This document shows, in pieces, positions 14,870 to 41,676 of a stretch of DNA of 50,405 bases. The DNA is taken from the UHGV virus genome UHGV-0169486, one strand, 5' to 3'. Below the pieces are notes generated by a model. That model ran no database searches. It worked only from the letters and a program-made list of their open reading frames with translations, and was not told the origin of the DNA. The translations under genes were made by a program, and so were the position numbers. Position 1 is the stretch's first letter, and each line of letters begins with the position of its first letter. This DNA is from a virus.

Positions 14870-14923
14870 TTTCTCACCTTGTCATTTTGTGATCTGCATC
14901 ACGCAAGATCATGCCAAAATGGA

Positions 14924-15543: not shown

Positions 15544-15552
15544 GGTGGCAAT

Positions 15553-15801
15553 ATGACGCGGCGCAATCACGGTGACTATGTGTACACGTTGAAACAGGCC
15601 GCCCGCCTTATCGGTTATCATGAGCACGAATTTATTGATTTGCTGATTGAGCGCGGGGTTTTGTACCAGGTCTGTTTAACGCTGTACCCAAAAGCGAAAT
15701 ACCTACAGGAAAAGTTATTCATCATCATGACGGATGAAAACCAGGTAAACCATTCATTCGTCACTGATAAGGGATTGACATATTTGAAGGGGGCGTTATG
15801 A
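15553..15801 (+). CDS. hypothetical HTH-like small protein (island A)
   Basis: ORF track; AAGGTGG RBS; segment YTLKQAARLIGYHEHEFIDLLIERGVLY resembles a DNA-binding HTH. Confidence 0.5.
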   Translation: MTRRNHGDYVYTLKQAARLIGYHEHEFIDLLIERGVLYQVCLTLYPKAKYLQEKLFIIMTDENQVNHSFVTDKGLTYLKGAL

Positions 15802-15870
15802 GATGTGCGAACATTACGTTCTGGAGGTGATTATTATCATTATTGGATTGTTATGCATTCTGCTATCGAC

Positions 15871-15900
15871 ACTATAAACCCCGCTTCGCGCGGGGTCGTG
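15871..15900. terminator. hairpin terminator between island A and the convergent minus-strand gene
   Basis: CCCCGC-ttcgc-GCGGGG hairpin with flanking T-rich runs on both strands. Confidence 0.45.
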
Positions 15901-15901
15901 T

Positions 15902-16087
15902 TTATACCCTATCAACCAAAAATAAAACTCCCCTTCCCTCTCTCGACCTGCACCCAACATACCCGTCACCAACGTCATGAAGATACCAGATCTCGCCATT
16001 GTCATCCTTTACGGTAAGATCTTTGATTTCATAGTCGTCAAATAATGTAAAAGCGCCCGTGCGGTCAACTACACAAATAGCATACAT
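15902..16087 (-). CDS. hypothetical protein downstream of M
   Basis: ORF track (15902..16129); ATG 16087 with GGAGAAG RBS. Confidence 0.4.
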   Translation of the reverse strand: MYAICVVDRTGAFTLFDDYEIKDLTVKDDNGEIWYLHDVGDGYVGCRSREGRGVLFLVDRV

Positions 16088-16100: not shown

Positions 16101-16454
16101 TTAATTGATAACTTGTTCAAACGTTGCATTCAGAGTGCATACCGGGCCGTCTTTCGCCATGCTCCACTTTCGGCATACAAAAAGCCTTTTCACTCCGTCT
16201 GTAGATGGCGTCCAGTAAAACGCCTCGACCGCGCAACGTGCTCTTAAAAATGCGTCAACCTGGAGCGCCACGTTTCCGGCGTCACCGCATCCGGCGCTCG
16301 TACCTTTAAAGACCAGCGTATAGCTGTCAAGTAGTGGATTAATCCCTTTTGTCTGGCGCTGTTCATAGCCATCGCCCAGCTTGATAACGGACACGTTAGG
16401 CTCACTGTTTACGCTGTAGCTTCTCTGTGGTGTCCATCTGAACACTTCCGGCAT
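16101..16454 (-). CDS. M: minor tail protein M
   Basis: Recalled similarity to lambda M (FRW..., GDGY.QR, FEQV.N C-terminus); GGAGG RBS. Confidence 0.8.
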   Translation of the reverse strand: MPEVFRWTPQRSYSVNSEPNVSVIKLGDGYEQRQTKGINPLLDSYTLVFKGTSAGCGDAGNVALQVDAFLRARCAVEAFYWTPSTDGVKRLFVCRKWSMAKDGPVCTLNATFEQVIN

Positions 16455-16624
16455 ACCCCCTCCTGTAAGTTACATTTTGTATATATCTTTACGCACTTCT
16501 ACGCGAAAAATGAGATATTCGACACAAGAATTATAGCCAATTTACAATATGTATTCACACACGAAGCAACAAGCTGTATACAGGAAGCAAGAAGAAAAGC
16601 GGTACCAGCAAGTGAGGCCCAAAA

Positions 16625-16780
16625 ATGAGTAGCTATGTAGTAGTGATGCTAAACAACGCATTCGAGCAAGTGGAAGTAGCAATTGTTAAGGGTTTCGACG
16701 ACGCATTCAAATACGGTCAATTCATGATGAACGCGAAGAATGATGAATACCGGGATTTCTTCCTGAGGGCGCTTAACTAA
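16625..16780 (+). CDS. hypothetical small protein (51 aa, island B)
   Basis: Own translation MSSYVVVMLNNAFEQVEVAIVKGFDDAFKYGQFMMNAKNDEYRDFFLRALN; GTGAGG RBS. Confidence 0.3.
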   Translation: MSSYVVVMLNNAFEQVEVAIVKGFDDAFKYGQFMMNAKNDEYRDFFLRALN

Positions 16781-16790
16781 GGACGATGGG

Positions 16791-17051
16791 GTGAGTTATG
16801 AAACTGGTAACTATCGAAAAAACCTGAAAGCACAAAAGAATGCACAGGAACGGGTAATCAAGAAAGGCAAGAAGTTGCTTAACGCCTTCCTGAAAAAAGA
16901 AGCCCGCCCCAAAAAATTACGTGATGGTTATGGCTTTAAATTCGATATCAATCCTGACTGGCGGCTGTTCAGTGAAGATTTGAATATTTGGTTAATTATC
17001 GATCACCTGGAATACAACTGTCATTGCGGAGTGAAAGGCGCTCATAAGTGA
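16791..17051 (+). CDS. hypothetical basic protein (island B)
   Basis: ORF track; GTG start with AGGA RBS; Lys-rich. Confidence 0.4.
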   Translation: MSYETGNYRKNLKAQKNAQERVIKKGKKLLNAFLKKEARPKKLRDGYGFKFDINPDWRLFSEDLNIWLIIDHLEYNCHCGVKGAHK

Positions 17052-17160
17052 GGTGGAATATGGAGGAGGAGAAATATACCTAGCGGGAGATCTGGAACAT
17101 CTGGTTAGTGATGTTCGGCAGGGGTTACGTCGCACGTAACGGAAGATTATAGGAGGAAAA

Positions 17161-17346
17161 ATGATTATTGACGAAACAGAGTTATGTTACGGAGTTAGGT
17201 TAGATCTTGATGAGGATGGTCGGCTGTGGATAACCGAACTTATGGGGACTGAAACCATAGTAATTGAAAAATCGCAGGCAACACAACTTATCGCCGGGCT
17301 GCAAAAATTTGTAGATGGCACATTTGAGAACGATCGGGAGGATTAA
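17161..17346 (+). CDS. hypothetical acidic small protein (island B)
   Basis: ORF track; strong AGGAGG RBS. Confidence 0.5.
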   Translation: MIIDETELCYGVRLDLDEDGRLWITELMGTETIVIEKSQATQLIAGLQKFVDGTFENDRED

Positions 17347-17348
17347 CG

Positions 17349-17636
17349 ATGGATTTAACCGTTATTGGTCACGCACTGGCTGCGGCGACTATACAGGTTG
17401 TTATCGGCCTGCTTACTGGTGATTATCTCACTGGCGGCCTGATTGGATGTACATTCTTTTTTGCGCGGGAACACACACAGGCTGAATATCGTTACATAGC
17501 GGAATTTTGCGGAGGGAAACGAGAAAGAATGCCGTGGTATGGTGGTTTTTTACCAAAAGCATGGAATATGGCTAGCGTTTGCGACTTCGCCGCGCCCGCA
17601 TTCCTGTGCTGTTTAATTTATATCCTTACCATGTAA
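17349..17636 (+). CDS. hypothetical membrane protein (island B)
   Basis: ORF track; GGGAGGA RBS; hydrophobic N- and C-terminal segments; followed by terminator. Confidence 0.5.
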   Translation: MDLTVIGHALAAATIQVVIGLLTGDYLTGGLIGCTFFFAREHTQAEYRYIAEFCGGKRERMPWYGGFLPKAWNMASVCDFAAPAFLCCLIYILTM

Positions 17637-17640: not shown

Positions 17641-17661
17641 AAGGCCGCTTATAGCGGCCTT
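17641..17661. terminator. bidirectional rho-independent terminator between tape measure gene and island B
   Basis: Hairpin AAGGCCGCT-tat-AGCGGCCTT with flanking T-rich runs on both strands. Confidence 0.65.
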
Positions 17662-27475: not shown

Positions 27476-28793
27476 TGTTGTTTTCCTCGTCGTCCAGTTC
27501 TACTTCCTGCGTTGGCCCTTCATACCCGGCAGCTTCGCGAATCTCGTCACCGTCGAATACTTGTTCACCTGTGGCGAGACATGCCTGATTGATTTGCGCC
27601 ATTTTGTATGCCGCGTCGAGTAGCTCGGCTTTCGTCATGGCGTTAAGGTCGTCCCACAGTACCGACACGTCGACTGGCATACTGATAAGGCGGAGATCTG
27701 CCATCTTGCGGAATAGTTCCTCAAGCTCGCCTCCTATTTCCTCCCGGCGGGTCATACAGCGGTTATTGAAGTAGCGGAGGTCTTCGGTTGATGCACGCTC
27801 ACCCTGCTGATTCCCAACCAGGATACGCGTTGGAATGTCGATGCCAGCGGCGGCGGTTTGCAGGTTGACGTCATAGGTAGCGGACGGATCGGCTACGGCA
27901 GTGACCAGCGGGCTAACGGTAGCTCCCTGCAATGCCATCATCACATCATTGCCCTTGTTTATATCCTCTGCCGCCTCATTGAATTTTTCGCGTAGCTCTG
28001 TAACGTCGCAACCGTATGTTGCAGCCAGGGAACGGAAATCAATTTCTTTATCGAACGAGATAGCCAGTTGACGCGCGGCGTTTTTCAGGAATGACTCACC
28101 GCTACCGCCTTCCACTTTCTCCAGCGAAACGAATGCGTTATAGGGCGGCTCAAGGAAAGCGATGGCATCATCAGAATAATCACCGAAGATAAATATGCGA
28201 TCGGGATGTATCTTTCTTGCTATGGTCTTACTGTTAATGCGCTCCTTGTATTCCCACCATGTCGGCAGGCCATAGTTTTCATTATCCGGGTTTTCTTCGA
28301 AGTCCTTCGGTGTAAGAGCACCAGCCCATACAGGGGTAAATTTGGCAATGCCTACACCTTTCGTCACTGGCCGATCCCACGGCTGGTTATCCCTGACGTG
28401 AATTAACAGGCCAGCATAACGACCAATGAGGCGGCGGCGATCGCATTCAGCTATGACGCGCCAGAAACGATTATCAAATCGTTTTTTGATTTCTCTTTCC
28501 CACGGCGTTTCCTTTTCTGCTTTCTCGTCTTCCGTACCTTCGATCAGCGTTGGCCTGGTGCGCCAGCACGTAGTGATGATCTTCTCAATAGCACCGTGAG
28601 CGATACCACCGCGACGATACAGTTTGTATAAATCGTCATAGGTGATTTCTTCTTTGAATCCGTATTCACTCCACGCAGCATCACGTTTTGCATCAATACC
28701 CATTGAGAATGGGTTAGCGGCTGCATAGCGGGCAAAGGCCGCCTGGCGTTGTGACAAGGCAGCATTAACCGCCAATTCTAAATTGGATGGCAT
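27420..28793 (-). CDS. portal protein
   Basis: ORF track (27420..28814); ATG 28793 with AGGAG RBS; size and position after large terminase; acidic C-terminus. Confidence 0.65.
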   Translation of the reverse strand: MPSNLELAVNAALSQRQAAFARYAAANPFSMGIDAKRDAAWSEYGFKEEITYDDLYKLYRRGGIAHGAIEKIITTCWRTRPTLIEGTEDEKAEKETPWEREIKKRFDNRFWRVIAECDRRRLIGRYAGLLIHVRDNQPWDRPVTKGVGIAKFTPVWAGALTPKDFEENPDNENYGLPTWWEYKERINSKTIARKIHPDRIFIFGDYSDDAIAFLEPPYNAFVSLEKVEGGSGESFLKNAARQLAISFDKEIDFRSLAATYGCDVTELREKFNEAAEDINKGNDVMMALQGATVSPLVTAVADPSATYDVNLQTAAAGIDIPTRILVGNQQGERASTEDLRYFNNRCMTRREEIGGELEELFRKMADLRLISMPVDVSVLWDDLNAMTKAELLDAAYKMAQINQACLATGEQVFDGDEIREAAGYEGPTQEVELDDEENNNEGEENNQANTSSRDNAI

Positions 28794-28871
28794 AATGTTT
28801 ACTCCTGAATACATGTTTACGCGTTGCTACGCGAAAAATGGAAAAACTTATGGGGGATTGTGAGATGGTTT

Positions 28872-30356
28872 TTAAAATCCGCGCAGGCGCTTAGGTAACA
28901 TGAGGCCCACAGCCTGTGGCTGGCTTAATTCAGTGATACCCCATACCATCGCGTCGAGGCGGTCGGGTGATTTTTTAGCGGTAGCTGGCACGTATTCCAT
29001 CATTTGATTTTCCAGCGTGTACAGGCTGCCAGTGTGGGCTACCCTTCCCTGTGCATACAGTGCCGATATTGGCTCGGCGCGGGCGAATTTACCTTTGCTT
29101 GCGTGCACCTTAACAATGCGGCCTTTGAATCCGGCATTACGCAACGTGGCCACTGCCATTTCGCCGCCCTGGTTGGTTTCGATAACTATCGCATCAGCCT
29201 CATGGATGTTATAAGCGTTCATTGAGGCTTGCGCCCAATCGTTAGGAGACATGCGGCCTGAGTAGTCACCGTCTACTGAATACTGTGCGTACTTGCCGCC
29301 ACCATAGGCGGAACATGCCACGATCCCGGTTTCGTCCGATTCATCAGATGATGTTGTAGCCGGGTCGATGGCTATTACCGTGCGAATCTTGTCCTGCGTT
29401 ATCTGCATCCGGTGCGCAGCGGTTATCATCGCTTCCGTCCACAATGCGCCTTCCTCGTCGAATTTACGCGGGCGCTGCATATATTGGGCTTCGAATGACC
29501 TGCGGTGCGCCTTTAGTCCGGCTTCGTGGCTGTCATTGTGCTTTTTAGGCCATAGCCAGCCGTCCGGCAGGTTGTGAGCAATAGGAATAGCGAATTCATT
29601 TTCCGGGTACAGATCCCAATAGTCGACGCTGTTATCAATCTTCACAGGCAGGTTGAGGTGATACCATTTCTCACCGCTTCCACCGCGTAACAGGTAGCCG
29701 GACAAATCATCGTAGTGGATGCGTTGCATGATAACGATCACTGGCGTTGTTTGTACTGCCAGACGTGAAGCCAGCGTGTCGTTGTAGTTGGTCTTTACCT
29801 TCTCACGCATCACATCAGAGTAAGCGTCAGCGGGCTTTAATGGGTCGTCGATAATCATCGCGCCGTTGAAGCCCGGCTCCATGTAACCAGCACGGAAGCC
29901 TGTTATCTGGCCCTGTGAAGATGCGGCATATATCCCGCCTCCCTGTTCCGTCCACCACATTGATTTACTGTTGGCATCATTGCGGATCTTCATAGGCCAT
30001 AACTTCTGGTATTCCTGCGAGCAAATCATGTTTCTGACTGTCGAGGAATTGAGTAACGCAAGATTGTCGGAATAGGAAACGTGAAGGAAACGTGTGCGGG
30101 GATTTATTGCGAGGGACCGCGCCATCATGTTAATGGTCGCAATCATGGTTTTACCGTACCCTGGGGGAATGTTAATGATGAGACGGGTAATCTCACCATT
30201 GATAACGCGTTGTAGCGCATCGCGTATGGCTATGTGATGGCCTGAGATTAACATCTTCGTGCCGTTGGCCTGCTTATAGAAATAACGGTTGAAGAACAAG
30301 CCATCGTTTTCACATTTGGATTGAATAACCCTTTCTTTGATGGACAACATAATCAC
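28872..30356 (-). CDS. terminase large subunit
   Basis: Walker A-like PPGYGKT; nuclease-type C-terminal region; ATGA overlap with small subunit gene. Confidence 0.85.
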   Translation of the reverse strand: MIMLSIKERVIQSKCENDGLFFNRYFYKQANGTKMLISGHHIAIRDALQRVINGEITRLIINIPPGYGKTMIATINMMARSLAINPRTRFLHVSYSDNLALLNSSTVRNMICSQEYQKLWPMKIRNDANSKSMWWTEQGGGIYAASSQGQITGFRAGYMEPGFNGAMIIDDPLKPADAYSDVMREKVKTNYNDTLASRLAVQTTPVIVIMQRIHYDDLSGYLLRGGSGEKWYHLNLPVKIDNSVDYWDLYPENEFAIPIAHNLPDGWLWPKKHNDSHEAGLKAHRRSFEAQYMQRPRKFDEEGALWTEAMITAAHRMQITQDKIRTVIAIDPATTSSDESDETGIVACSAYGGGKYAQYSVDGDYSGRMSPNDWAQASMNAYNIHEADAIVIETNQGGEMAVATLRNAGFKGRIVKVHASKGKFARAEPISALYAQGRVAHTGSLYTLENQMMEYVPATAKKSPDRLDAMVWGITELSQPQAVGLMLPKRLRGF

Positions 30357-30838: not shown

Positions 30839-30928
30839 AATTCACCTCTCAATATTTATTGATGATATATACGCAAGCAACAAAACTTGCACAGTATGTT
30901 AATACTTCCAACCAGTCGAATAGCTTTT

Positions 30929-31072
30929 TCATTGTTTAACCTTAAATCTCTGTTTTGCTTCTCTGTAAATAAGCGCGGTAATCATTACAATCACGTATAC
31001 GCATAACATTAATGCGGCAATAAGCAGACCAGCGCAAAGCAAGAACGTTAGCAGATTGAGGAATTCAGACAT
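30929..31072 (-). CDS. micro-ORF A, 47 aa single-TM peptide
   Basis: Own translation MSEFLNLLTFLLCAGLLIAALMLCVYVIVMITALIYREAKQRFKVKQ; start 3 codons after stop of preceding micro-ORF. Confidence 0.4.
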   Translation of the reverse strand: MSEFLNLLTFLLCAGLLIAALMLCVYVIVMITALIYREAKQRFKVKQ

Positions 31073-31081
31073 GATGCTTTC

Positions 31082-31150
31082 TCACGCAAAAAAAACGATA
31101 ACGGCTAACAGTGTGCATATAGCCATAATTAAGAAATCACCGTCAGACAT
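31082..31150 (-). CDS. micro-ORF B2, 22 aa hydrophobic peptide
   Basis: Own translation MSDGDFLIMAICTLLAVIVFFA; ATG overlaps stop region of B1. Confidence 0.3.
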   Translation of the reverse strand: MSDGDFLIMAICTLLAVIVFFA

Positions 31151-31217
31151 TGATAATAAACCCCACAATAACAGCCGCTGCAATACATACGAATAATACA
31201 GCCTCGATGGTTTCCAT
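31143..31217 (-). CDS. micro-ORF B1, 24 aa hydrophobic peptide
   Basis: Own translation METIEAVLFVCIAAAVIVGFIINV; AGGTGA RBS. Confidence 0.4.
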   Translation of the reverse strand: METIEAVLFVCIAAAVIVGFIINV

Positions 31218-31225
31218 ATATTCAC

Positions 31226-31294
31226 CTATTGAGTCAACGCGGTCATGGTAAGAACAATCGCAACGGTCAGGAAAAATAAATCAAGCCATTTCAT
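31226..31294 (-). CDS. micro-ORF C, 22 aa hydrophobic peptide
   Basis: Own translation MKWLDLFFLTVAIVLTMTALTQ; GGGAGA RBS; ATGA overlap with micro-ORF D. Confidence 0.4.
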   Translation of the reverse strand: MKWLDLFFLTVAIVLTMTALTQ

Positions 31295-31371
31295 TTTTTA
31301 GTCTCCCGGTATACGTCCACGGCAATAACTGCAACGGCAGCCACCAGCAATAGCATTTCGTAGGCGTTCAT
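31291..31371 (-). CDS. micro-ORF D, 26 aa hydrophobic peptide (MNAY family)
   Basis: Own translation MNAYEMLLLVAAVAVIAVDVYRETKK; ATGA overlap with micro-ORF E. Confidence 0.4.
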   Translation of the reverse strand: MNAYEMLLLVAAVAVIAVDVYRETKK

Positions 31372-31466
31372 TTGATACTACCTACAACCAGACCGATGAT
31401 GATGATTATGGCGACAATGCCTAACATCATGCCGCACATAATCGCCAGTAATTCGAATATATCCAT
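31368..31466 (-). CDS. micro-ORF E, 32 aa hydrophobic peptide
   Basis: Own translation MDIFELLAIMCGMMLGIVAIIIIIGLVVGSIK; AGGTGA RBS. Confidence 0.4.
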   Translation of the reverse strand: MDIFELLAIMCGMMLGIVAIIIIIGLVVGSIK

Positions 31467-31474
31467 GCCGTCAC

Positions 31475-31549
31475 CTATACAACATTCTTTAACCACAGAT
31501 ACATAATGACGGCGAGTGATGAGCACCAGATGAGATCGTAAATATTCAT
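31475..31549 (-). CDS. micro-ORF F, 24 aa hydrophobic peptide (MNIY, paralog of H)
   Basis: Own translation MNIYDLIWCSSLAVIMYLWLKNVV; AAGGTA RBS; shares TACGATCTCATCTGGT with H. Confidence 0.4.
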   Translation of the reverse strand: MNIYDLIWCSSLAVIMYLWLKNVV

Positions 31550-31559
31550 GTTGATACCT

Positions 31560-31634
31560 TTAGCTTTCGATGAATATCATGACCGCCAGCCATACAGCGA
31601 CGCATGCAGAAAGGATAACGACCGGGTCAATCAT
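31560..31634 (-). CDS. micro-ORF G, 24 aa hydrophobic peptide
   Basis: Own translation MIDPVVILSACVAVWLAVMIFIES; GGTGA RBS. Confidence 0.4.
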   Translation of the reverse strand: MIDPVVILSACVAVWLAVMIFIES

Positions 31635-31639
31635 ATTTT

Positions 31640-31714
31640 TCACCACAGCCTGTAAATGTTCACGCAAATACCTACGATGAGCACCAATAACCAGATGAGA
31701 TCGTAGGCGTTCAT
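31640..31714 (-). CDS. micro-ORF H, 24 aa hydrophobic peptide (MNAY family)
   Basis: Own translation MNAYDLIWLLVLIVGICVNIYRLW; ATGA overlap with micro-ORF I. Confidence 0.4.
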   Translation of the reverse strand: MNAYDLIWLLVLIVGICVNIYRLW

Positions 31715-31806
31715 AATTTACTCTTTACGGTTATCAGCACGGCAATGACAAAACACACCAGAAATACAGAAACACCGATTAGTCCGGCGATGATGTTCTC
31801 ATCCAT
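31711..31806 (-). CDS. micro-ORF I, 31 aa hydrophobic peptide
   Basis: Own translation MDENIIAGLIGVSVFLVCFVIAVLITVKSKL; weak RBS. Confidence 0.35.
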   Translation of the reverse strand: MDENIIAGLIGVSVFLVCFVIAVLITVKSKL

Positions 31807-33869: not shown

Positions 33870-33896
33870 AAGCAAAAACCCGGCGCTGGGCCGGGT
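33870..33896 (-). terminator. rho-independent terminator just upstream of holin RBS (tR'-like, candidate target of Q antitermination)
   Basis: CCCGGC-ccagc-GCCGGG followed by TTTTTGCTTTGTT on minus strand, then holin RBS. Confidence 0.55.
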
Positions 33897-33961
33897 AATT
33901 ACAATTTCGCATTGTTAGGAAGTATTTTAATCTATTTGTTTTTTATGCGCGATCATGGCTT

Positions 33962-34135
33962 CTATTTCTTCTTTATCAGGCCATTATCAAGCAATATTTG
34001 CATCTGTTCACGATCCATGTTTACGCCAGTCCAGAAAGGATGCTCACTCGACATAACAAAAACCTTTTCCTCTTTCAGCAAGTAAGCAATATCAAATAAG
34101 TTATGCACATATACACCGTCTTCGATCTCATTCAT
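33962..34135 (-). CDS. possible small protein (57 aa)
   Basis: Own translation MNEIEDGVYVHNLFDIAYLLKEEKVFVMSSEHPFWTGVNMDREQMQILLDNGLIKKK; AAGG RBS. Confidence 0.3.
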   Translation of the reverse strand: MNEIEDGVYVHNLFDIAYLLKEEKVFVMSSEHPFWTGVNMDREQMQILLDNGLIKKK

Positions 34136-34318
34136 AAATCACCAACCTTGCGCCAGTACCCATGATTAACCATCGTAATAATTTCTTTCGCTGTCATAGG
34201 TAAAAATGGCTCATGTCACCGATCAAGTCTACCCAGGCGCATCAAAACGCTTTCGCCTTCAAGGCGGTAATAAGCGCGTGATGCTAACGACTGATAAACG
34301 CCGTCATATTCATGGTCG

Positions 34319-34519
34319 CTATTTCCCATTTTTGCGCTCCTTAATAGCTCGCATGATCTGTATGCGCGTAGCGTCTACAAAAGCGTAAAAGACTGCTACA
34401 GGCCAGAAAGTAATCTCAAGACCACCACGATCGAGATCGTTAGATTTGATGAAACAAGACATCAGGATAGCGCCAGCGATATAAAGGAGAACCACCGCAA
34501 GGATAAGACATTCAATCAT
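34319..34519 (-). CDS. small membrane protein
   Basis: ORF track; hydrophobic N-terminal segments. Confidence 0.45.
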   Translation of the reverse strand: MIECLILAVVLLYIAGAILMSCFIKSNDLDRGGLEITFWPVAVFYAFVDATRIQIMRAIKERKNGK

Positions 34520-34652
34520 CTTCTTTCTCCCCGCCTAAATATTGATAAATTTCTTCAGCGTTTTCCCCTCGCTCAAAACAATAATGTTCAAACATGCGCC
34601 AATGTTCACTAAGAAACATAACAATAAAATTATTAACGTATTCGTCATTCAT
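34512..34652 (-). CDS. possible acidic small protein (46 aa)
   Basis: Own translation MNDEYVNNFIVMFLSEHWRMFEHYCFERGENAEEIYQYLGGEKEDD; AGAGGA RBS. Confidence 0.35.
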   Translation of the reverse strand: MNDEYVNNFIVMFLSEHWRMFEHYCFERGENAEEIYQYLGGEKEDD

Positions 34653-34654
34653 CG

Positions 34655-34909
34655 TTAATCGTCCTCTTCATCGTCTTCTTGTTCTGCCAGGAATTCATCG
34701 ACGGCGCGGGAAGTGACTGGCGGGATGTATTCGAAATCATCATCCGTATCAAGATCAAGCGTCCTGCTGTCGCCGTCGTCGTCAATCGTAATCATCCCTA
34801 AGTTACCGAAAGGGCCATAACCAATATGGCCCAGGTATTCACAACCAGGTGTAAATCCGATATATTTATTTTTACACCGGATTTTGTAAGGTTTATTTGA
34901 TGCGCTCAA
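34655..34909 (-). CDS. hypothetical acidic protein
   Basis: ORF track; TTG start with GGAG RBS. Confidence 0.45.
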   Translation of the reverse strand: MSASNKPYKIRCKNKYIGFTPGCEYLGHIGYGPFGNLGMITIDDDGDSRTLDLDTDDDFEYIPPVTSRAVDEFLAEQEDDEEDD

Positions 34910-35216
34910 TTTTAGAATCTCCGCTTTCTGTTTCGGTTATTTTGTATTCCGCGACCACTTCCGCGCCAACCAATTCGACATCAGCATCAGGGCAAGGATT
35001 AATCATCAGTGAAGCGAAAACGAACATTTTAATTTTATCAGGGTGTTCAAGATGCTCTGGATTAAAAGGCGGCTCCGATACGTGGAAGCATTTAACATGT
35101 TCTTCGTCTTCCGTTGCTACACGGAAACATGCGCCAGGCATCCCACCGAATTCGCCGTATTTCTCACCTTCTGGAATAGTGCCACGGAAAACTTTAACGC
35201 TGATAAATTTAGTCAT
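34893..35216 (-). CDS. hypothetical protein
   Basis: ORF track; strong GAAGGAGA RBS. Confidence 0.55.
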   Translation of the reverse strand: MTKFISVKVFRGTIPEGEKYGEFGGMPGACFRVATEDEEHVKCFHVSEPPFNPEHLEHPDKIKMFVFASLMINPCPDADVELVGAEVVAEYKITETESGDSKIERIK

Positions 35217-35219
35217 TGT

Positions 35220-35474
35220 TTATTCTCCTTCGTAAAAAACAGCTACCAGTTCAGGATTGTTTAATGGGTTAGGGCAAGAATAAAAACCACTTCGCAATAA
35301 TCCTCTAAGCGCCTTCATTTTTCTGTGCACCGGGATTGATTCGCTTAAATAGAAATCATCTTTCCTTTTGTCATAAGGTAGCTCGTAAAACCTACCGTAA
35401 TTGACGAATTGAACGACGCGACAAAACTCACCATCAGCCTTACTATTGCCGCGCCATATTTTGATTATCTCCAT
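35220..35474 (-). CDS. hypothetical protein
   Basis: ORF track; GGAG RBS. Confidence 0.5.
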   Translation of the reverse strand: MEIIKIWRGNSKADGEFCRVVQFVNYGRFYELPYDKRKDDFYLSESIPVHRKMKALRGLLRSGFYSCPNPLNNPELVAVFYEGE

Positions 35475-35632
35475 AATTAATACTCCACACCTGGTAAGCT
35501 ACGCGCCTTATGAACTGCGTCCTTTGCGTCAACCAATGCCGCGCCAAACTCGTAGATCTTGCCATTCTTAAAAAACGCGCTGCATCGTGAGTATGTACAC
35601 TGGTATCTATGTTTCCTACTCATAACCATCAC

Positions 35633-35887
35633 CTATTCCGGTTTACTGCCTTCGCGGTCACAAAATACAGCTACGCCGTGGAAGTCATGCACGATGCGAT
35701 AATAAACCTTGTCAGTGTGTGGAAAGCGTGTGACATAAGCAAAATAAACCTTATCATCATCACCAGTTATCGCCATTGCGCCATCACCGCCCGGTGCGCC
35801 GTGGAGTTGAACGCCGCAGTAAATTTTCCCGTCTTCGAATATATCGCGGTCACGCGTCTGCACTACCTCAAAATATAAATGTTTCAT
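35633..35887 (-). CDS. hypothetical protein
   Basis: ORF track (35633..35992); internal ATG 35887 with AAGGGG RBS preferred. Confidence 0.45.
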   Translation of the reverse strand: MKHLYFEVVQTRDRDIFEDGKIYCGVQLHGAPGGDGAMAITGDDDKVYFAYVTRFPHTDKVYYRIVHDFHGVAVFCDREGSKPE

Positions 35888-35897
35888 GTCTACCCCT

Positions 35898-36110
35898 TTA
35901 ATAACGTTCAAAGCTGGCAGCAAAACCCACGCCGGATATTTCACCGCCACTGTAGCTCGGCCTGAATATCCAGATCTCATCTTGATTGTCAATCAAGGCA
36001 AGGCAGTTATTCATTGTGTGATTTTCGTTGCCATAAACGATGTGAACGTCATAAATACGTCCAGTCGTGAAAACGCCGTCATTGCTTGAGTATGAGCATT
36101 TAACTTGCAT
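35898..36110 (-). CDS. hypothetical protein
   Basis: ORF track; AAAGGGG RBS. Confidence 0.5.
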   Translation of the reverse strand: MQVKCSYSSNDGVFTTGRIYDVHIVYGNENHTMNNCLALIDNQDEIWIFRPSYSGGEISGVGFAASFERY

Positions 36111-36361
36111 TAGAAAACCCCTTTATAATCGACCGTATATTTTGCTATCAGATTCCAGTCGCAATAGTTGAGCATGTCGCGCGGTTGCCAGCCTTTCATC
36201 CCGACCGCCCGCCGCGCGGCGTGACGGCGATAATCATCGTTATAATCAGCCATGCACCACGGCTGGAGGACAAACATATAATTTGCTTCATTAACCAGGA
36301 TAGCTACACGCTTTCCTGTCACCTTGTCTTTCGCCCTGAAATAATTCACTTTCATTTTCAT
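36110..36361 (-). CDS. hypothetical protein
   Basis: ORF track; operon packing. Confidence 0.5.
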   Translation of the reverse strand: MKMKVNYFRAKDKVTGKRVAILVNEANYMFVLQPWCMADYNDDYRRHAARRAVGMKGWQPRDMLNYCDWNLIAKYTVDYKGVF

Positions 36362-36573
36362 TTCAATACCTCGTCGATCAGCATTTCTTCTTCCAGGTTA
36401 GCCGGATGTTTACGGAATATCCCGGCAAAAACCAGATCATCAAGTAGGTCTTTACGCTTAAATAACCACTCTTTCATTATCACCCCGTCGTCGCTGCGAT
36501 ATACGACGCCACTTTTCAGAAAATAAAAAGTGCGGCTATTTGTCTGGAGGTATAAATCCTCGTAAACGTCCAT
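36358..36573 (-). CDS. hypothetical protein
   Basis: ORF track; GAGGG RBS. Confidence 0.5.
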   Translation of the reverse strand: MDVYEDLYLQTNSRTFYFLKSGVVYRSDDGVIMKEWLFKRKDLLDDLVFAGIFRKHPANLEEEMLIDEVLK

Positions 36574-36577
36574 GATA

Positions 36578-36805
36578 TTAACCCTCGACTACTTGCAAGC
36601 CGCGCCCCTTATCGCCTACGAAGTCGCCCAGGCTAAACGTATATGACCACGCCGGGTTAATGTAGTGATCATCAGCACCGTGAGCGATAAGGTCTTTACC
36701 CATAATGACGCAGGTCACATCATCAGAATGAACGACGTCTACCGTTTCCCCTACCACGCGTTTTAATGACGGGTATCCGTGATCGTGCAAGAATTTAACT
36801 TTCAT
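36578..36805 (-). CDS. hypothetical protein
   Basis: ORF track (36578..36838); ATG 36805 with AAGGG RBS. Confidence 0.45.
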   Translation of the reverse strand: MKVKFLHDHGYPSLKRVVGETVDVVHSDDVTCVIMGKDLIAHGADDHYINPAWSYTFSLGDFVGDKGRGLQVVEG

Positions 36806-37088
36806 ATTTTTTACCCTTATAAGTAACAGCATCAGCAATCAACAATACCGCCAGCATTTCACCGTCATGCAACGGATCTGGAATAGAAAAAAATATGTCG
36901 CTGTTTTTGTCAGGCACTACTACGCGCATATTGCCTTGTTTGTCTTCATGAACAAACCACGGCTTTTCGTGTGGCTCAAACATACCGAAAAGCAATTTAA
37001 GATCTATTTCTTCGCCCTTCGTGAATAACGATACGTCCGTTGTAGCGATAACTAACGCTTTCTGATCTGCCACTTTCTTCGTTCTCAT
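36795..37088 (-). CDS. hypothetical protein
   Basis: ORF track. Confidence 0.5.
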   Translation of the reverse strand: MRTKKVADQKALVIATTDVSLFTKGEEIDLKLLFGMFEPHEKPWFVHEDKQGNMRVVVPDKNSDIFFSIPDPLHDGEMLAVLLIADAVTYKGKKYES

Positions 37089-37318
37089 TCTTCTGCCTCC
37101 CAGCGGTCAATGCTGATTAGAAAATCACGGATAGCGTGGCGCTCGTCGCGCGTTGGCTTGCGCTTCCGGTAAATCTTAAAGTCAAACCATTCTTTTTCTT
37201 GTTCGAAATCCAGGTCGTAAGCAAGCGCCTCAATATATCCACATTCGTGATACTGGTACGCCACGCCAGCACGAACAAAAAAGCGGGTTTTATCCCGCTT
37301 GTGTTCATAGATACGCAT
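37085..37318 (-). CDS. hypothetical protein
   Basis: ORF track; overlaps neighbour by 4 nt. Confidence 0.5.
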   Translation of the reverse strand: MRIYEHKRDKTRFFVRAGVAYQYHECGYIEALAYDLDFEQEKEWFDFKIYRKRKPTRDERHAIRDFLISIDRWEAEE

Positions 37319-37328
37319 ATTTACCCCG

Positions 37329-37559
37329 CTATGCAGTTGTGTAGCTGTCTACCAGCTTTTCATCCTTCATTCTGGCAAGCTGGGCGATGTTCATCGTGTA
37401 GCCGCCATCAGAGAAAAGCCACTCCGCAGCCTTGCGACGAAAAGCGATATCATCATGGTTACGCGTCCATGTGGCGATCACCGCGCGCTTTCCGTCAGTG
37501 GCAAACATACTTAACTCATTATCAACTACGTCGATAGCCTGCCAAATTTTTAGCTCCAT
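37329..37559 (-). CDS. hypothetical protein
   Basis: ORF track. Confidence 0.5.
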   Translation of the reverse strand: MELKIWQAIDVVDNELSMFATDGKRAVIATWTRNHDDIAFRRKAAEWLFSDGGYTMNIAQLARMKDEKLVDSYTTA

Positions 37560-37915
37560 GATTTATCTCCGTAGATCTTGAATAGTTCCCGTGCTTCCTG
37601 GTCTTCAAATAGATTCATATGCAGGTTATGTAGTCGGCGCATTGTGCGGAAGCGCGGTCTGAATTCCTGGTTTCTTTTAATGAACTTACCACCAATTGAA
37701 TAAATATGACCGTATGAATACCATCTATTACCCACCCAAATTTGATATTCTTCACCTTCATAATTAATTTTGATTGTAAGCTCGTCAACCTCCATTATTA
37801 ATCCTTTGTCGAGGATATCGTTTAACATCGAATCCCACTCTTTAAGGAAAGGTTGTTGATAAAAACCGAAAAGTGTATTTGCTGCATGGCAAAGGTAATC
37901 AATGATTATTTGCAT
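37550..37915 (-). CDS. hypothetical protein
   Basis: ORF track; GGTGA RBS. Confidence 0.5.
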   Translation of the reverse strand: MQIIIDYLCHAANTLFGFYQQPFLKEWDSMLNDILDKGLIMEVDELTIKINYEGEEYQIWVGNRWYSYGHIYSIGGKFIKRNQEFRPRFRTMRRLHNLHMNLFEDQEARELFKIYGDKSWS

Positions 37916-37919
37916 GTTG

Positions 37920-38120
37920 TCACCACATCATATAATAAACGTTATCGTCAGCTAATTCGTCAGCGTCTTTTTGACAGTCGATTGTCGCATCGTCTTCGTG
38001 CCATTCTTTCGCGAATAAACGCGCCCATTTACGACGCTCACGCTTATTGCGTCGCAAATCATCAAAAACCATTAAAGCCTTATCGTAAGCTCTTACCATG
38101 CGTTTCATTCTACTTTTCAT
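37920..38120 (-). CDS. hypothetical basic small protein
   Basis: ORF track; strong AAGGAAGGTGA RBS. Confidence 0.5.
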   Translation of the reverse strand: MKSRMKRMVRAYDKALMVFDDLRRNKRERRKWARLFAKEWHEDDATIDCQKDADELADDNVYYMMW

Positions 38121-38325
38121 CTTTCACCTTCCTTAATTCCTTAATTTCAATATTGCGCAACCGGACGTCGCACGGCGTTTCAGATTTACCAGTAAGCGCC
38201 AGCGTCAGGTTTTCAGGTGTCGTGTAAAGGATTATCTCTTTACCTGTGCTAAATTTAATTTCTATGCGGATCTCGTTTTCGTCACCGCACAATACACGGC
38301 TAATTGATAGGCCAGCTTTTTTCAT
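38110..38325 (-). CDS. hypothetical protein
   Basis: ORF track. Confidence 0.5.
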   Translation of the reverse strand: MKKAGLSISRVLCGDENEIRIEIKFSTGKEIILYTTPENLTLALTGKSETPCDVRLRNIEIKELRKVKDEK

Positions 38326-38630
38326 TGCTCACCCCACCTTAACATCCAATTCACATCACACTTAATTGCGAATACCTTAACAGGATCAGGGCCGAATAAT
38401 GGATGCGTGATAGTTTTTACTTCGTACCCGAAATAAGGCAGGTTTATAATCCGGTGCGCTTCGTGGCTGGCTGGATACCCCAGCTTAATGATCAGGCGTT
38501 CATATTTCCGCCCTTCCAGGCGTTTACGCCAATAGTCATTGTAAAGCCTGTATTCTTCCACCTTCTTTCCCGCCCGGATGGCGTAAAAGTATTCTCCTTT
38601 CAGGTTTAAATGTAGATCTTTACTTGCCAT
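38322..38630 (-). CDS. hypothetical protein (possibly ASCH/PUA-like)
   Basis: ORF track (38322..38666); ATG 38630 with AGGAG RBS; domain guess is weak. Confidence 0.45.
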   Translation of the reverse strand: MASKDLHLNLKGEYFYAIRAGKKVEEYRLYNDYWRKRLEGRKYERLIIKLGYPASHEAHRIINLPYFGYEVKTITHPLFGPDPVKVFAIKCDVNWMLRWGEQ

Positions 38631-38892
38631 CGCTATGCTCCTGTAAAAAGTCGTTATAGCCTTCAATGTATCCGGTCAATCCGGTGTTACTAACTGACCA
38701 TTCAGCCGTCCGTCGCTTGATGGCTTCATCCATTATAATTTCACCTTTGCGATGGCATCCGGCATCAATATAGCGGTTAACAACCGAAGATAGCCGCCCG
38801 CGTAGCTGTTGTGTCCCGGCGTAATATCGTGCTGTATCCGCAAGCGCGTTAACCAACTGGCGGTAAATATGTTCTTTTAATTTAGGCTTCAT
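38620..38892 (-). CDS. hypothetical protein
   Basis: ORF track (38620..38943); ATG 38892 with GAGGGTGA RBS. Confidence 0.5.
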   Translation of the reverse strand: MKPKLKEHIYRQLVNALADTARYYAGTQQLRGRLSSVVNRYIDAGCHRKGEIIMDEAIKRRTAEWSVSNTGLTGYIEGYNDFLQEHSDGK

Positions 38893-39232
38893 TATCATCA
38901 CCCTCGAAATACTGCTCAATCGCACGTTTGACGTTAATTTCACGCTGATAATTGTTATTGCTGTAGATTGCTGCTGCCGATACGTGATCGATAATTTGCT
39001 GTAATAAATCAGGATGAATTTTTATTTTTTCGTCAAGGACAATGCGCTCTGGTTCTGGCGCTTCGGCGTTATCTTCAATAATTTCTATCTCACCACTACC
39101 ACCGCATCGCGGACAAACAAACTTATCGCCTTGATACAGAAAGAGGCCACAACCTTTTTCAGTCTTAACGACCATGCCGTCTTCGTAGCAGTTTTCGCAA
39201 TATAACCACCCGATATTAATTATTTTCATCAT
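38882..39232 (-). CDS. zinc-ribbon protein (CxxC...CxxC)
   Basis: ORF track (38882..39289); ATG 39232; CENC and CPRC pairs. Confidence 0.5.
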   Translation of the reverse strand: MMKIINIGWLYCENCYEDGMVVKTEKGCGLFLYQGDKFVCPRCGGSGEIEIIEDNAEAPEPERIVLDEKIKIHPDLLQQIIDHVSAAAIYSNNNYQREINVKRAIEQYFEGDDNEA

Positions 39233-39416
39233 CGCCCCGCTTATAGATATGCACTGGCTTAACAGGAATGGCAGGCAATTCGCCTTCATTTAACGCGCTT
39301 GCCATACCTAATATTAAACGCGCTTCCGCACCAGTAACTTTCTTACACCATGCGCCGCCTGTTTTGTCTTCAAATAAGATAACAGCGAACTGATCGTTTA
39401 TTTCCAGCTTATCCAT
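39216..39416 (-). CDS. hypothetical protein
   Basis: ORF track; directly downstream of Q. Confidence 0.5.
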   Translation of the reverse strand: MDKLEINDQFAVILFEDKTGGAWCKKVTGAEARLILGMASALNEGELPAIPVKPVHIYKRGDDENN

Positions 39417-40138
39417 TATTCACCCCGTGTCACTCGCTTGATTTCGCTTTCCGCGCGGGCTTCTTCTTTGAATAGCTCCGCTATGGCGTCCTCATAGAAA
39501 ACCCTGTATTTCTTCCACCATGTTGATCGGCTTACCGGGAAAACAAGCTGGTTAACAGCCTGCCGGACAAGATCTACAGGGAAACGCGAGTAGCCTCGCC
39601 CGCCGCAGTGCTGGCACGTTTTGAATACTGGCATTTCCGCCGCTTCGCTGGCTGTTTTATCCGGTATCTCGCCACTCCCCTTGCATTGTTTACAATGATT
39701 GCGAACCTTTCCATGCCCCTTGCATTTTTTGCAAAGATGTTTTTCTCCGTAGTCGTCAAACGTAAATTTATATCCGCCGCACTCCATACAAGTTTTTTCC
39801 GTCGCGGCGCTTTGGCAATAATCCCGAAACGCGAAAACGGCAACAAGAATAATAAGATCATTGCGTTGTTCTTCATTTAATTCCATCACATATTCGTAAT
39901 CTTTCGCCATAGCTCTTAAACGCTCTGTAAGCAATACTACAGCCCTGTGTTTTTCGGCTTGCGATAGCTCCATCTTCCCTAAAAAAGCACTATAGCCAAG
40001 CTCTACGCGCGATTGCGCCATACCCGCAGCGGTTAGCGCATCAGTCGTATTAAGCGCATCCGGGGATGTGCCCCGGCTTTCGTCTGATAATCGCGGTGAT
40101 TTGGGAAAGTGGAATTTCAGAATGGATTCTAAATTCAT
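39416..40138 (-). CDS. Q: late-gene antiterminator Q-like protein with Cys-rich insertion
   Basis: N-terminus MNLESILKFHFPKSPRLSDESRG...AAGMAQS recalled as similar to lambda Q; multiple CxxC pairs; GGGGGGA RBS. Confidence 0.75.
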   Translation of the reverse strand: MNLESILKFHFPKSPRLSDESRGTSPDALNTTDALTAAGMAQSRVELGYSAFLGKMELSQAEKHRAVVLLTERLRAMAKDYEYVMELNEEQRNDLIILVAVFAFRDYCQSAATEKTCMECGGYKFTFDDYGEKHLCKKCKGHGKVRNHCKQCKGSGEIPDKTASEAAEMPVFKTCQHCGGRGYSRFPVDLVRQAVNQLVFPVSRSTWWKKYRVFYEDAIAELFKEEARAESEIKRVTRGE

Positions 40139-41579: not shown

Positions 41580-41676
41580 TTTTGTTTGCTTGAAGTATAC
41601 AAAACGGATGCGCCAGAACAAGGCGAAAAGCGCCATTATGTGATGCATATCACGCTATGACGCCATTTTGTAAACT

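What the first reader, a model, noticed from the sequence alone, without database searches (positions are those of the whole stretch)
28817..28840. Conserved direct-repeat element upstream of portal and tail M genes
A roughly 25-nt block (plus strand TTTACGC-N4-CTACGCGAAAAATG; two TACGCR units 10 bp apart) occurs upstream of the portal start (28817-28840) and upstream of the M gene start (16488-16512), in the same orientation relative to the gene in both cases. This could be a late promoter or activator site, or a translational operator, used by at least two late genes.
Basis: seen in the sequence. Interest (0 to 1): 0.4.

Follow-up and report, generated by a model that had tools for sequence, protein, structure and literature searches.

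The report
Conserved two-copy late-gene leader element
A short DNA motif sits just upstream of the portal gene and the tail-tip gene M in every sampled relative of this mEp021-like E. coli phage and is clearly under selection, but it is not an ordinary promoter and how it works is still open.

Summary
The repeat is real. On the late-gene (minus) strand it reads ATTTTT-CGCGTAG-NNN-CGCGTAA-A. Copy A is at 28816-28839, 22 nt before the portal ATG (28793). Copy B is at 16488-16511, 33 nt before the M ATG.

A 21/25 match in 50 kb is about what chance gives. The evidence is conservation. The window is an mEpimmI (mEp021-like) coliphage. Every relative retrieved independently of the motif has exactly these two copies, in the same orientation. 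Diversity in the core is 0.002-0.013, against 0.07-0.16 in the flanks.

It is not a sigma-70 promoter, an intrinsic terminator, a nut site or an Rfam family. A canonical Q plus pR'-like late promoter lies elsewhere, at about 33.9 kb. The one paper on this phage family does not mention the element.

The mechanism is unresolved:
- **Best guess (0.35):** an operator for an unidentified sequence-specific protein that binds two CGCGTAR repeats one helical turn apart and gates transcription into the head and tail-tip gene blocks.
- **Near-equal rival (0.3):** a hairpin in the mRNA leader.

The "late promoter" reading does not.

The parts
28816..28839 (-). Copy A core: ATTTTTCGCGTAGCAACGCGTAAA on the late-gene strand. 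It lies between the TerL stop codon and the portal gene.
   Evidence: Identical in 8 phage genomes. Diversity (pi) 0.002 over 39 distinct relatives. Intact in 22 of 22 metagenome loci that were anchored on the portal ribosome-binding site.
16488..16511 (-). Copy B core: ATTTTTCGCGTAGAAGTGCGTAAA. The second repeat begins with T here; relatives have C.
   Evidence: Diversity (pi) 0.013 against 0.12-0.16 in the flanks over 35 distinct relatives.
28792..28849 (-). Block around copy A that is invariant in 8 phages. It contains a second T5 run, the core, the Shine-Dalgarno AGGAG (28802-28806) and reaches the portal ATG (28791-28793).
   Evidence: Alignment A1. The flanking coding DNA is 88-91% identical.
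28872..28874 (-). TerL stop codon. In some relatives a different TerL allele joins the conserved spacer at this point.
16452..16463 (-). M start codon (16452-16454) and its Shine-Dalgarno GGAGGGGG (16456-16463).
   Evidence: M matches PF05939.
16478..16512 (.). Extended gapless similarity between the two copies (35 nt, 83%); the partner stretch is 28806-28840.
   Evidence: family D11.
16530..16535 (-). TATAAT hexamer, invariant in relatives, 18 nt upstream of copy B. It is a candidate -10 of a local promoter for M, with a weak -35 (GTGAAT here, GTGAAG in relatives). It could equally be A/T-rich DNA upstream of the divergent + strand promoter.
   Evidence: Inference only.
16511..16526 (.). CRP-consensus-like palindrome next to copy B. 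Relatives have TGTGATGAAGATCTCA; the copy in this window is degraded.
16554..16582 (+). Predicted promoter (TTCACA, 17-nt spacer, TATACA) of the opposite-strand cassette at 16625-17636.
   Evidence: Conserved blocks. Manual reading, not tested.
17641..17661 (.). Bidirectional intrinsic terminator between the tape-measure gene and the opposite-strand cassette. Late transcripts must read through it to reach M.
33874..33929 (-). pR'-like late promoter region: TAAAAT at 33929-33924, a short leader, then a terminator (stem 33895-33879, T run 33878-33874) immediately before the holin gene.
   Evidence: Corresponds to TERM_5/t5 of mEp021.
39416..40138 (-). Q-type late antiterminator gene.
   Evidence: PF03589, E = 5e-29. 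Annotated as late gene regulator Q in mEp021.

Best explanation
The block is the core of a family-specific cis-element of mEpimmI (mEp021-like) coliphages. It consists of two CGCGTAR heptamers exactly 10 bp apart, flanked by a T5 run and an A3 run. It is present exactly twice per genome, in one orientation. The copies sit at the entrances of the head block (portal onward) and the tail-tip block (M onward) of the Q-dependent late operon.

I think it is most likely the operator of an unidentified, probably phage-encoded, sequence-specific DNA-binding protein. On this view two head-to-tail protomers bind one face of the helix. The bound protein would gate RNA polymerase entering these two blocks, as an orientation-dependent roadblock or gate rather than a promoter.

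**Shown:** existence, copy number, orientation, position, purifying selection, and the absence of promoter, terminator, nut or Rfam signatures.

**Inferred:** that the ligand is a protein, that it acts on DNA rather than on the mRNA, and whether it represses or activates.
For: - **Present in every relative.** Relatives were fetched through capsid-protein homology alone (78-97% amino-acid identity). Every one that spans both positions has exactly two copies, with at most 2 mismatches in 21 specified positions. They have the same orientation, lie 11.8-13.4 kb apart, and no third copy occurs within 10 kb.
- **No copy elsewhere.** There is none in the window at up to 5 mismatches, and none in the early half of mEp021.
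- **Low diversity in the core.** Pi is 0.002 and 0.013, against 0.07-0.16 in the flanks.
- **Internal control.** A chance half-copy inside the portal gene varies like ordinary coding DNA in the same genomes.
- **The sequence itself is fixed, not just pairing potential.** 20 of 36 aligned columns are invariant. Only the 3-nt spacer after repeat 1 and two positions after repeat 2 vary freely. This is the pattern expected for tandem protein contacts one helical turn apart.
- **No RNA covariation.** The hairpin reading gains nothing from covariation: 469 of 500 shuffles score at least as high, and the RNAalifold covariation term is -0.19.
- **Conservation runs past the hairpin.** T33 (over 90% conserved) and A34 (invariant) of the alignment lie 3' of the possible hairpin.
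- **Copy B lies about +11 to +35 from a candidate start site.** That start site would follow the conserved TATAAT, and this is a classic operator position.
- **Known analogue.** Asymmetric, orientation-specific sites in intergenic spaces of phage operons that stop elongation are known as stoperators (PMC9283540).
Against: - No binding protein was identified. Twenty small ORFs between Q and the holin gene have no Pfam hit. The 51-aa protein encoded next to copy B is acidic and does not look DNA-binding.
- Unlike stoperators, there is no copy in the immunity region, so the CI-like repressor is probably not the ligand.
- The element is also a quasi-palindrome that folds into a 12-bp bulged hairpin. 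93.5% of cells pair, and most one-sided changes are G-U compatible on the late-gene strand.
- At copy A the invariant block runs on through the ribosome-binding site, which suits an RNA leader.
- Copy A has no conserved promoter upstream of it to be controlled.
- Whether Q-modified polymerase can be blocked by a bound protein is not known.
Confidence: 0.35

Rival explanations
1. It acts as RNA. On the late transcript the element folds into a bulged hairpin (AUUUUU-CGCG-U / loop / R-CGCG-U-AAASAU). This hairpin would serve as a processing, stability or protein-binding determinant in the leaders of portal and M. One version: it forms a protective 5' hairpin after cleavage in the U-rich tract and marks the start of two mRNA segments, each ending at a strong terminator (after the capsid gene at 23774-23754, after J at 8722-8701).
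For: - Predicted hairpins of -8.0 and -6.2 kcal/mol.
- RNAalifold recovers the hairpin in 21 copy-B sequences.
- 93.5% of cells pair, against 22-74% in the slid controls.
- Four independent one-sided substitutions keep pairing as G-U on the late-gene strand only.
- The element lies in the same orientation, 22-34 nt upstream of the start codons.
- At copy A the invariant block includes the ribosome-binding site.
- M is preceded by about 1.2 kb of untranslated RNA antisense to the cassette, where an insulating or stabilising hairpin would make sense.
- Terminators follow the capsid gene and J.
Against: - There is no covariation.
- Stem bases are invariant rather than co-varying, whereas this phage's own boxB stems differ between nutR1 and nutR2.
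- Folding z-scores are only -2.5 and -1.2.
- One stem position is a mismatch in all copy-A sequences, and the slid-control advantage is partly built in because the structure was derived from these sequences.
- The UAG half of the loop is invariant without explanation.
- The element does not overlap the ribosome-binding site, so simple occlusion of the ribosome is unlikely.
- No Rfam match.
Confidence: 0.3
2. It is an internal late promoter, or an activator site for one. The two repeats would recruit a phage activator or an alternative sigma factor so that portal and M receive extra transcription.
For: - Direct repeats 10 bp apart resemble lambda CII sites and response-regulator sites (established knowledge).
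- M lies downstream of a terminator and a 1.2-kb opposite-strand cassette, and could use its own promoter.
- A short conserved TRTAY motif follows the element in both copies.
Against: - No sigma-70 pair on either strand.
- The candidate -10 hexamers lack either A-11 or T-7.
- At copy A any start site downstream of the repeats falls within or after the Shine-Dalgarno sequence.
- L is in the same situation as M, downstream of an opposite-strand cassette, yet has no copy.
- The phage already has Q-dependent read-through.
- No sigma factor or RNA polymerase gene was found.
Confidence: 0.1
3. The similarity is a remnant of a duplicated gene leader that is kept uniform by recombination. It would be a module-boundary linker with no regulatory role of its own.
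For: - Weaker similarity extends beyond the core towards the genes.
- The spacer types are swapped between copy A and copy B in some genomes, which indicates gene conversion.
- Different TerL alleles, and in one relative an inserted HNH endonuclease gene, join right next to the elements.
- The phage encodes Erf and SSB.
Against: - Gene conversion within a genome cannot explain invariance between phages whose flanks differ by 12-20%.
- A sharply bounded 24-nt invariant core inside a variable spacer points to direct selection on the sequence.
Confidence: 0.07
4. Copy B belongs to the regulation of the divergent + strand cassette promoter as an upstream factor site, and copy A is an unrelated look-alike.
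For: - Copy B lies 77-101 bp upstream of the predicted start site of the cassette promoter.
- It sits next to a CRP-like site centred at about -70.5.
Against: - Copy A is equally invariant, yet it has no + strand gene or conserved + strand promoter beside it.
- Conservation and the A/B similarity extend towards portal and M, not towards the cassette.
Confidence: 0.05

Closest known systems
Stoperators of Cluster A mycobacteriophages (L5 gp71 type)
   Same: Short asymmetric sites in intergenic spaces of phage operons, all in one orientation relative to transcription and strongly conserved. They act on elongating polymerase rather than at a promoter (PMC9283540).
   Different: Stoperators are 13 bp, number about 20-30 per genome, and have the same sequence as the immunity operator bound by the repressor. 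Here there are only two 24-bp sites built from tandem repeats, and none lies in the immunity region. Binding and roadblock activity are untested.
Start-associated sequences (SAS/ESAS) of Cluster K mycobacteriophages
   Same: Family-specific repeats upstream of start codons in one orientation, conserved across genera, function unknown. ESAS are inverted repeats with a variable spacer and without RNA covariation (PMC3203893).
   Different: SAS sit 3-7 bp from the start codon, contain the Shine-Dalgarno sequence, occur before roughly 10-20 non-structural genes, and are GC-rich 13-mers. Here there are two copies, 22-34 nt upstream of structural genes and separate from the Shine-Dalgarno sequence.
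Lambda CII-dependent promoters (TTGC-N6-TTGC)
   Same: Two short direct repeats one helical turn apart, occurring at a few places inside a phage genome (established knowledge).
   Different: CII repeats straddle the -35 of promoters that have a recognisable -10 about 12 nt further on, and they fire against late or lytic transcription. No such geometry exists here on either strand.
Phage T7 RNase III processing sites
   Same: Repeated intercistronic elements in one orientation within long late transcripts, upstream of genes, with similar sequence between copies (established knowledge).
   Different: T7 sites are irregular hairpins of about 50-60 nt with two stems. Here the hairpin has at most 12 bp, and no conserved outer stem was found.
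N-utilisation (nut) sites of this phage family
   Same: Small hairpins in transcripts of the same phage that act on gene expression in cis (PMC11893012).
   Different: nutR1 and nutR2 have a boxA (TGCTCTTTAACAA, TACTCTTTAAAAA) followed by a boxB with a GAA-rich loop. The element has no boxA, and its loop is variable in the 3' half.

Membership tests
Sigma-70 promoter | A -35-like and a -10-like hexamer 16-18 bp apart, with A at position 2 and T at position 6 of the -10 | tested here: not met
   The scans list no site at or overlapping either copy on the gene strand. The only nearby hit is on the + strand (16519-16548) and is not conserved in relatives. Manual hexamer checks reach at most 2-3 of 6 for the -35 and lack A-11 or T-7.
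Sigma-70 promoter | The start site lies upstream of the ribosome-binding site of the gene served | tested here: not met
   At copy A only 9 nt separate the core from AGGAG. A -10 downstream of the repeats puts the start site within or after the Shine-Dalgarno sequence.
Intrinsic terminator | A GC-rich hairpin followed by a U run on the transcribed strand | tested here: not met
   The T run precedes the hairpin on the gene strand, and an A run follows it on the other strand. It is not listed by the terminator scan.
nut site (N-type antitermination) | A boxA (CGCTCTTTA-like) followed by a boxB hairpin with a conserved purine-rich loop | tested here: not met
   There is no boxA near either copy, and the loop varies at 3 of 6 positions. 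Compare the window's own nutR1 and nutR2.
Q-binding/qut late promoter | Adjacent to a strong promoter with a promoter-proximal pause and a downstream terminator, once per genome, upstream of the lysis genes | tested here: not met
   That architecture is found at 33874-33929, before the holin gene, and contains no copy of the element.
Stoperator-type roadblock operator | An asymmetric site in intergenic spaces, in one orientation relative to transcription | tested here: met
   Both copies are intergenic and in the same orientation in all relatives.
Stoperator-type roadblock operator | The same sequence serves as the operator at the early promoter and is bound by the immunity repressor | tested here: not met
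   No copy at up to 5 mismatches anywhere else in the window or in the early half of mEp021.
Stoperator-type roadblock operator | Protein binding that stops elongating RNA polymerase | not testable with these tools
   This needs EMSA or footprinting and transcription assays.
Structured cis-regulatory RNA | Base pairs maintained by compensatory substitutions | tested here: inconclusive
   Of 12 pairs, 5 never vary, 4 vary on one side only, and 1 has changes on both sides. The covariation score is no better than shuffles (469/500). The family is too uniform, and outgroups lack the spacer.
Rfam families | A match at the gathering score to any of 4227 covariance models | tested here: not met
   No hit in the window at the gathering score, and nothing meaningful at E up to 10 around either copy.
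SAS/ESAS (Cluster K mycobacteriophages) | A repeat 3-7 bp from the start codon that contains the Shine-Dalgarno core | tested here: not met
   The element ends 22 and 32-34 nt from the start codons and is separate from the Shine-Dalgarno sequence.
CRP, NagC/Mlc host-factor sites | TGTGA-N6-TCACA (CRP); TT and AA at positions 5 and 6 either side of a dyad centre (NagC/Mlc) | tested here: not met
   The core matches neither pattern. A separate CRP-like palindrome lies next to copy B. The NagC/Mlc spacing does not fit.

The most novel reading that the evidence does not exclude
mEpimmI phages have a second, undescribed layer of late-gene control on top of Q antitermination. A dedicated factor would recognise a 24-nt box, as DNA or as an mRNA hairpin, at just two checkpoints: the entrance to the head genes and the entrance to the tail-tip genes. 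This would coordinate, or silence in lysogens, two blocks of a single operon. Because the box is invariant across the whole family, the same factor could also act on superinfecting relatives.
Probability: 0.25. Interest if true: 0.55.

Novelty: new member of a known kind. Interest (0 to 1): 0.35.

Why it matters
mEpimmI phages were about as common as lambdoid phages in the Mexican E. coli phage (mEp) collection isolated from human faeces, and were proposed as a new family only in 2025. Their late regulation beyond an inferred Q protein is unstudied. This element is among the most conserved non-coding sequences in the head and tail-gene region examined, and it gives a concrete, cheap experimental handle: two 24-bp sites and two reporter genes. 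It allows a test of whether a Q-dependent late operon carries internal checkpoints, at either the DNA or the RNA level. If the element is only a leader hairpin, it is an ordinary feature. Either way the portal start and the local annotation should be corrected.

Tried and rejected
- **Chance.** The repeat alone is not significant. Conservation rules chance out.
- **Sigma-70 promoter, either strand.** Rejected (manual inspection).
- **Intrinsic terminator.** Rejected: the T run is on the wrong side of the hairpin.
- **Extra nut site.** Rejected after reading nutR1 and nutR2 in the window.
- **Q-binding site.** The pR'-like region has no copy.
- **Operator of the neighbouring toxin-antitoxin-like cassette.** The 51-aa protein is acidic, has no Pfam match, and falls in a PHROG of unknown function. 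Copy A has no such cassette.
- **Short peptide encoded on the + strand.** Rejected because there is no synonymous variation at any third position and no conserved start codon at copy B.
- **Third copy inside the portal gene (27981-28004).** It varies like coding DNA, so it is chance.
- **Presence in other phage families.** The extra IMG/VR matches are coding-region coincidences or an RNA virus.
- **Diverged versions in distant relatives.** Portals with 60% identity belong to lambdoid prophages of Enterobacter and Citrobacter. These have a different terminase and a 14-nt TerL-portal gap, so there is no outgroup. The single genome-contig scan found nothing useful.
- **Long-range pairing of the ribosome-binding site with upstream sequence.** Not conserved at copy B.
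- **RNase III-type double stem.** Not found.
- **Host factors.** The CRP and NagC/Mlc patterns were tested and do not fit. CpxR, OmpR, PhoP, IHF and the RfaH ops site were compared from memory only, and none fits the invariant CGCG.
- **Literature.** The one paper on this family does not mention the element.

Full report
**Observation**

The + strand pattern TTTACGC-N4-CTACGCGAAAAATG occurs exactly twice in the window, at 28816-28840 and 16488-16512. The TACGCR units are 10 bp apart. The gapless similarity extends to 35 nt at 83% identity (family D11).

All late genes lie on the minus strand, so I read the element on that strand: ATTTTT-CGCGTAG-NNN-CGCGTAA-A. Copy A (core 28816-28839) lies in the 57-nt spacer between the TerL stop codon (28872-28874) and the portal gene.

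Six of seven phage annotations and PGAP start at ATG 28793, which has AGGAG at 28802-28806. The core therefore ends 22 nt before the start codon. Copy B (core 16488-16511) ends 33 nt before the ATG of M (PF05939), which has its own GGAGGGGG.

**Is it more than chance?**

The shuffle test is circular, because the pattern came from this same sequence. In first-order Markov random sequences of the same composition I find about 0.85 direct pairs with at least 21 of 25 matches per 50 kb. The repeat by itself proves nothing. The evidence is comparative.

**What the window is**

It is an mEpimmI-type coliphage, 88-91% identical over the portal junction to mEp021, mEp010, mEp013, mEp044, mEp515, mEp554 and MagusPhagus. 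This group was described in 2025 as a new family (PMC11893012). That paper does not mention the element.

**Conservation**

- In the 8 phage genomes, a 58-nt block around copy A (28792-28849) is 100% identical. The first half of the spacer and the flanking genes vary.
- Copy B is conserved in three relatives whose surrounding DNA is only about 79-80% identical.
- An exact-pattern scan of IMG/VR gave 83 loci, at most two per contig.
- To remove ascertainment bias I fetched 48 loci through capsid-protein homology alone (78-97% amino-acid identity).
  - Every locus that spans the positions has copy A and copy B, with at most 2 mismatches in 21 specified positions.
  - The two copies have the same orientation and lie 11.8-13.4 kb apart.
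  - There is no third copy at up to 4 mismatches.
- Nucleotide diversity in the core is 0.002 (A) and 0.013 (B), against 0.07-0.16 in the flanks.
- Twenty-two metagenome loci anchored only on the portal ribosome-binding site all carry the intact element.
- A chance half-copy inside the portal gene varies at synonymous sites in the same genomes, which is a useful internal control.
- There is no copy elsewhere in the window at up to 5 mismatches, and none in the early half of mEp021.
- Only the 3-nt spacer varies freely (CAA, AAG, AAT, AGG, AAA, CTA, CGA), together with two positions after the second repeat.
- The A-type and B-type spacers are swapped in a few genomes, which points to gene conversion between the two copies.

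The element is confined to this family. Other matches in IMG/VR are coincidences in coding regions or an RNA virus. Phages whose portals are about 60% identical are lambdoid prophages of Enterobacter and Citrobacter with a different terminase and a 14-nt TerL-portal gap. No outgroup is therefore available for covariation analysis.

**What it is not**

- *Not a sigma-70 promoter.* The scans find nothing at the element on the gene strand. Candidate -10 hexamers lack A-11 or T-7. At copy A there are only 9 nt between the core and the Shine-Dalgarno sequence, so a start site downstream of the repeats would lose the ribosome-binding site.
- *Not the family's late switch.* That switch is canonical and lies elsewhere. 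There is a Q protein (PF03589, 39416-40138). A TAAAAT hexamer with a short leader and a terminator sits immediately before the holin gene (33874-33929). This corresponds to the experimentally shown terminator t5 of mEp021.
- *Not a restart promoter after each interruption.* Several gene-strand terminators follow the capsid, tail-tube, tape-measure and J genes, so late transcription must be antiterminated. L also lies downstream of an opposite-strand cassette, like M, yet it has no copy.
- *Not a terminator.* The T run precedes the hairpin.
- *Not a nut site.* The window's nutR1 and nutR2 have a clear boxA and a boxB with a GAA-rich loop.
- *Not an Rfam family*.

**The surroundings of copy B**

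These are complex and matter for interpretation. Between the tape-measure gene and M lies a 1.2-kb cassette on the opposite strand (16625-17636). It includes a ParE-like protein (PF24732) and is bounded by a bidirectional terminator (17641-17661). In the 170-nt divergent spacer, relatives conserve three features:

- a + strand promoter (TTCACA, 17-nt spacer, TATACA);
- a CRP-consensus-like palindrome (TGTGATGAAGATCTCA), centred about 70.5 bp upstream of that promoter's predicted start site;
- on the gene strand, an invariant TATAAT 18 nt upstream of the element.

If that TATAAT is a promoter for M, copy B lies at about +11 to +35, which is an operator position. Copy A has no equivalent conserved promoter. 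It has only a weak CACAAT at a similar distance, and this is lost in about a quarter of relatives.

**DNA or RNA?**

Two readings are embedded in the same sequence.

- *Direct repeats.* CGCGTAG and CGCGTAA lie 10 bp apart, each followed by about 3 less constrained bases. This suits tandem binding of a protein on one face of the helix.
- *Quasi-palindrome.* AUUUUU-CGCG ... CGCG-U-AAASAU folds into a bulged hairpin of up to 12 bp, at -8.0 and -6.2 kcal/mol with z-scores of -2.5 and -1.2.

On 28 distinct variants, 93.5% of cells pair. The covariation score is no better than shuffles (469 of 500 score at least as high). Five pairs never vary and only one has changes on both sides. The RNAalifold covariation term is -0.19.

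Most one-sided changes are G-U compatible on the gene strand, which mildly favours RNA. Three observations favour sequence-specific recognition, most simply of duplex DNA:

- the stem bases are invariant, whereas this phage's own boxB stems differ between its nut sites;
- the UAG half of the loop is invariant;
- conserved positions extend 3' of the hairpin.

I could not identify the ligand. The small cassette protein next to copy B is acidic, and 20 small ORFs between Q and the holin gene have no Pfam match.

**Verdict**

Its role as a shared cis-regulatory site for portal and M is well supported. The specific "late promoter" reading is not.

| Explanation | Weight |
|---|---|
| DNA operator or gate for an unidentified factor | 0.35 |
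| mRNA leader hairpin | 0.30 |
| Activator-dependent promoter | 0.10 |
| Non-regulatory duplication or linker | 0.07 |
| Copy B serves the divergent cassette promoter | 0.05 |

The closest known analogues are mycobacteriophage stoperators and SAS/ESAS repeats. It fails defining features of both, so the resemblance is one of working principle and it is not a member of either family.

Noticed in passing
window 14888-14903, 41639-41654, 44051-44066 (also 48735-48750 and 16511-16526): Palindromes TGTGAT-N4-ATCAC(R), identical to the CRP consensus core, occur three times at up to 1 mismatch (about 0.1 expected), and all three are intergenic. Weaker copies lie in the immunity region and next to copy B; relatives have TGTGATGAAGATCTCA there. 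Two of them sit about 62-70 bp upstream of predicted promoters of the opposite-strand cassettes, as in class I CRP promoters. They could equally be operators of a phage protein.
   Followed up: partly
window 380-401, 1516-1537, 41663-41680, 48778-48799 (+ strand); minus strand upstream of copy B in relatives and near 14990 upstream of L: A second repeat family, CCATTYTGTAAAC, sits near regulatory regions: upstream of nutR2, in the immunity region, and in the divergent spacers before M and L. It contains a TTTACA -35-like hexamer on the opposite strand.
   Followed up: no
window 15217-16017 and 16625-17636 (+ strand): The tail gene cluster is interrupted twice by cassettes on the opposite strand. 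One encodes a ParE-like protein (16791-17051) preceded by a 51-aa acidic protein. The 16625-17636 cassette ends at a bidirectional terminator (17641-17661); a + strand terminator-like hairpin lies at 15878-15896 in the other.
   Followed up: partly
window 30880-31800 (minus strand): Between the lysis genes and TerS lies an array of about ten tiny ORFs that encode hydrophobic peptides of roughly 20-30 residues with similar N-termini (MNAYDLIW..., MNIYDLIW..., MNAYEMLL...).
   Followed up: no
window 5292-5860: Compared with mEp021, the integrase gene is absent and the excisionase-like HTH gene is truncated to its first 41 codons (5292-5414). It is followed directly by the tail-fibre genes. This genome may be a variant that cannot integrate.
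   Followed up: partly
window 28791-28814: The portal gene has two in-frame ATGs (28814 and 28793), and only the second has a Shine-Dalgarno sequence. mEp021 has ATA at the second position and is annotated from the first ATG, with its 'RBS' feature lying inside the annotated coding sequence. RefSeq names this portal 'anti-CBASS protein Acb1 family protein', which looks like a naming artefact.
   Followed up: partly
L106 18567-19466 (IMGVR_UViG_2695420423_000006): An HNH homing-endonuclease gene (157 aa) is inserted between copy B and M, about 25 nt downstream of the core. mEp515 carries an HNH gene in the cassette on the other side.
   Followed up: partly
L125, L130 (copy A) and L140 (copy B): The 3-nt spacer typical of copy B (AAG) appears in copy A, and the spacer typical of copy A (CAA) appears in copy B. 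This suggests gene conversion between the two copies, which lie 12 kb apart.
   Followed up: partly
window 33960-39416 (minus strand): About 20 small ORFs lie between Q and the pR'-like promoter, and none has a Pfam match. The stretch is more than twice as long as in mEp021.
   Followed up: partly
relatives of window 28872-28900 (several IMG/VR and metagenome loci): Some relatives carry an unrelated TerL 3' end (…GGCTACATAAAATCTG…) joined to the conserved spacer exactly at the stop codon. This is a sharp mosaic boundary just upstream of copy A.
   Followed up: no
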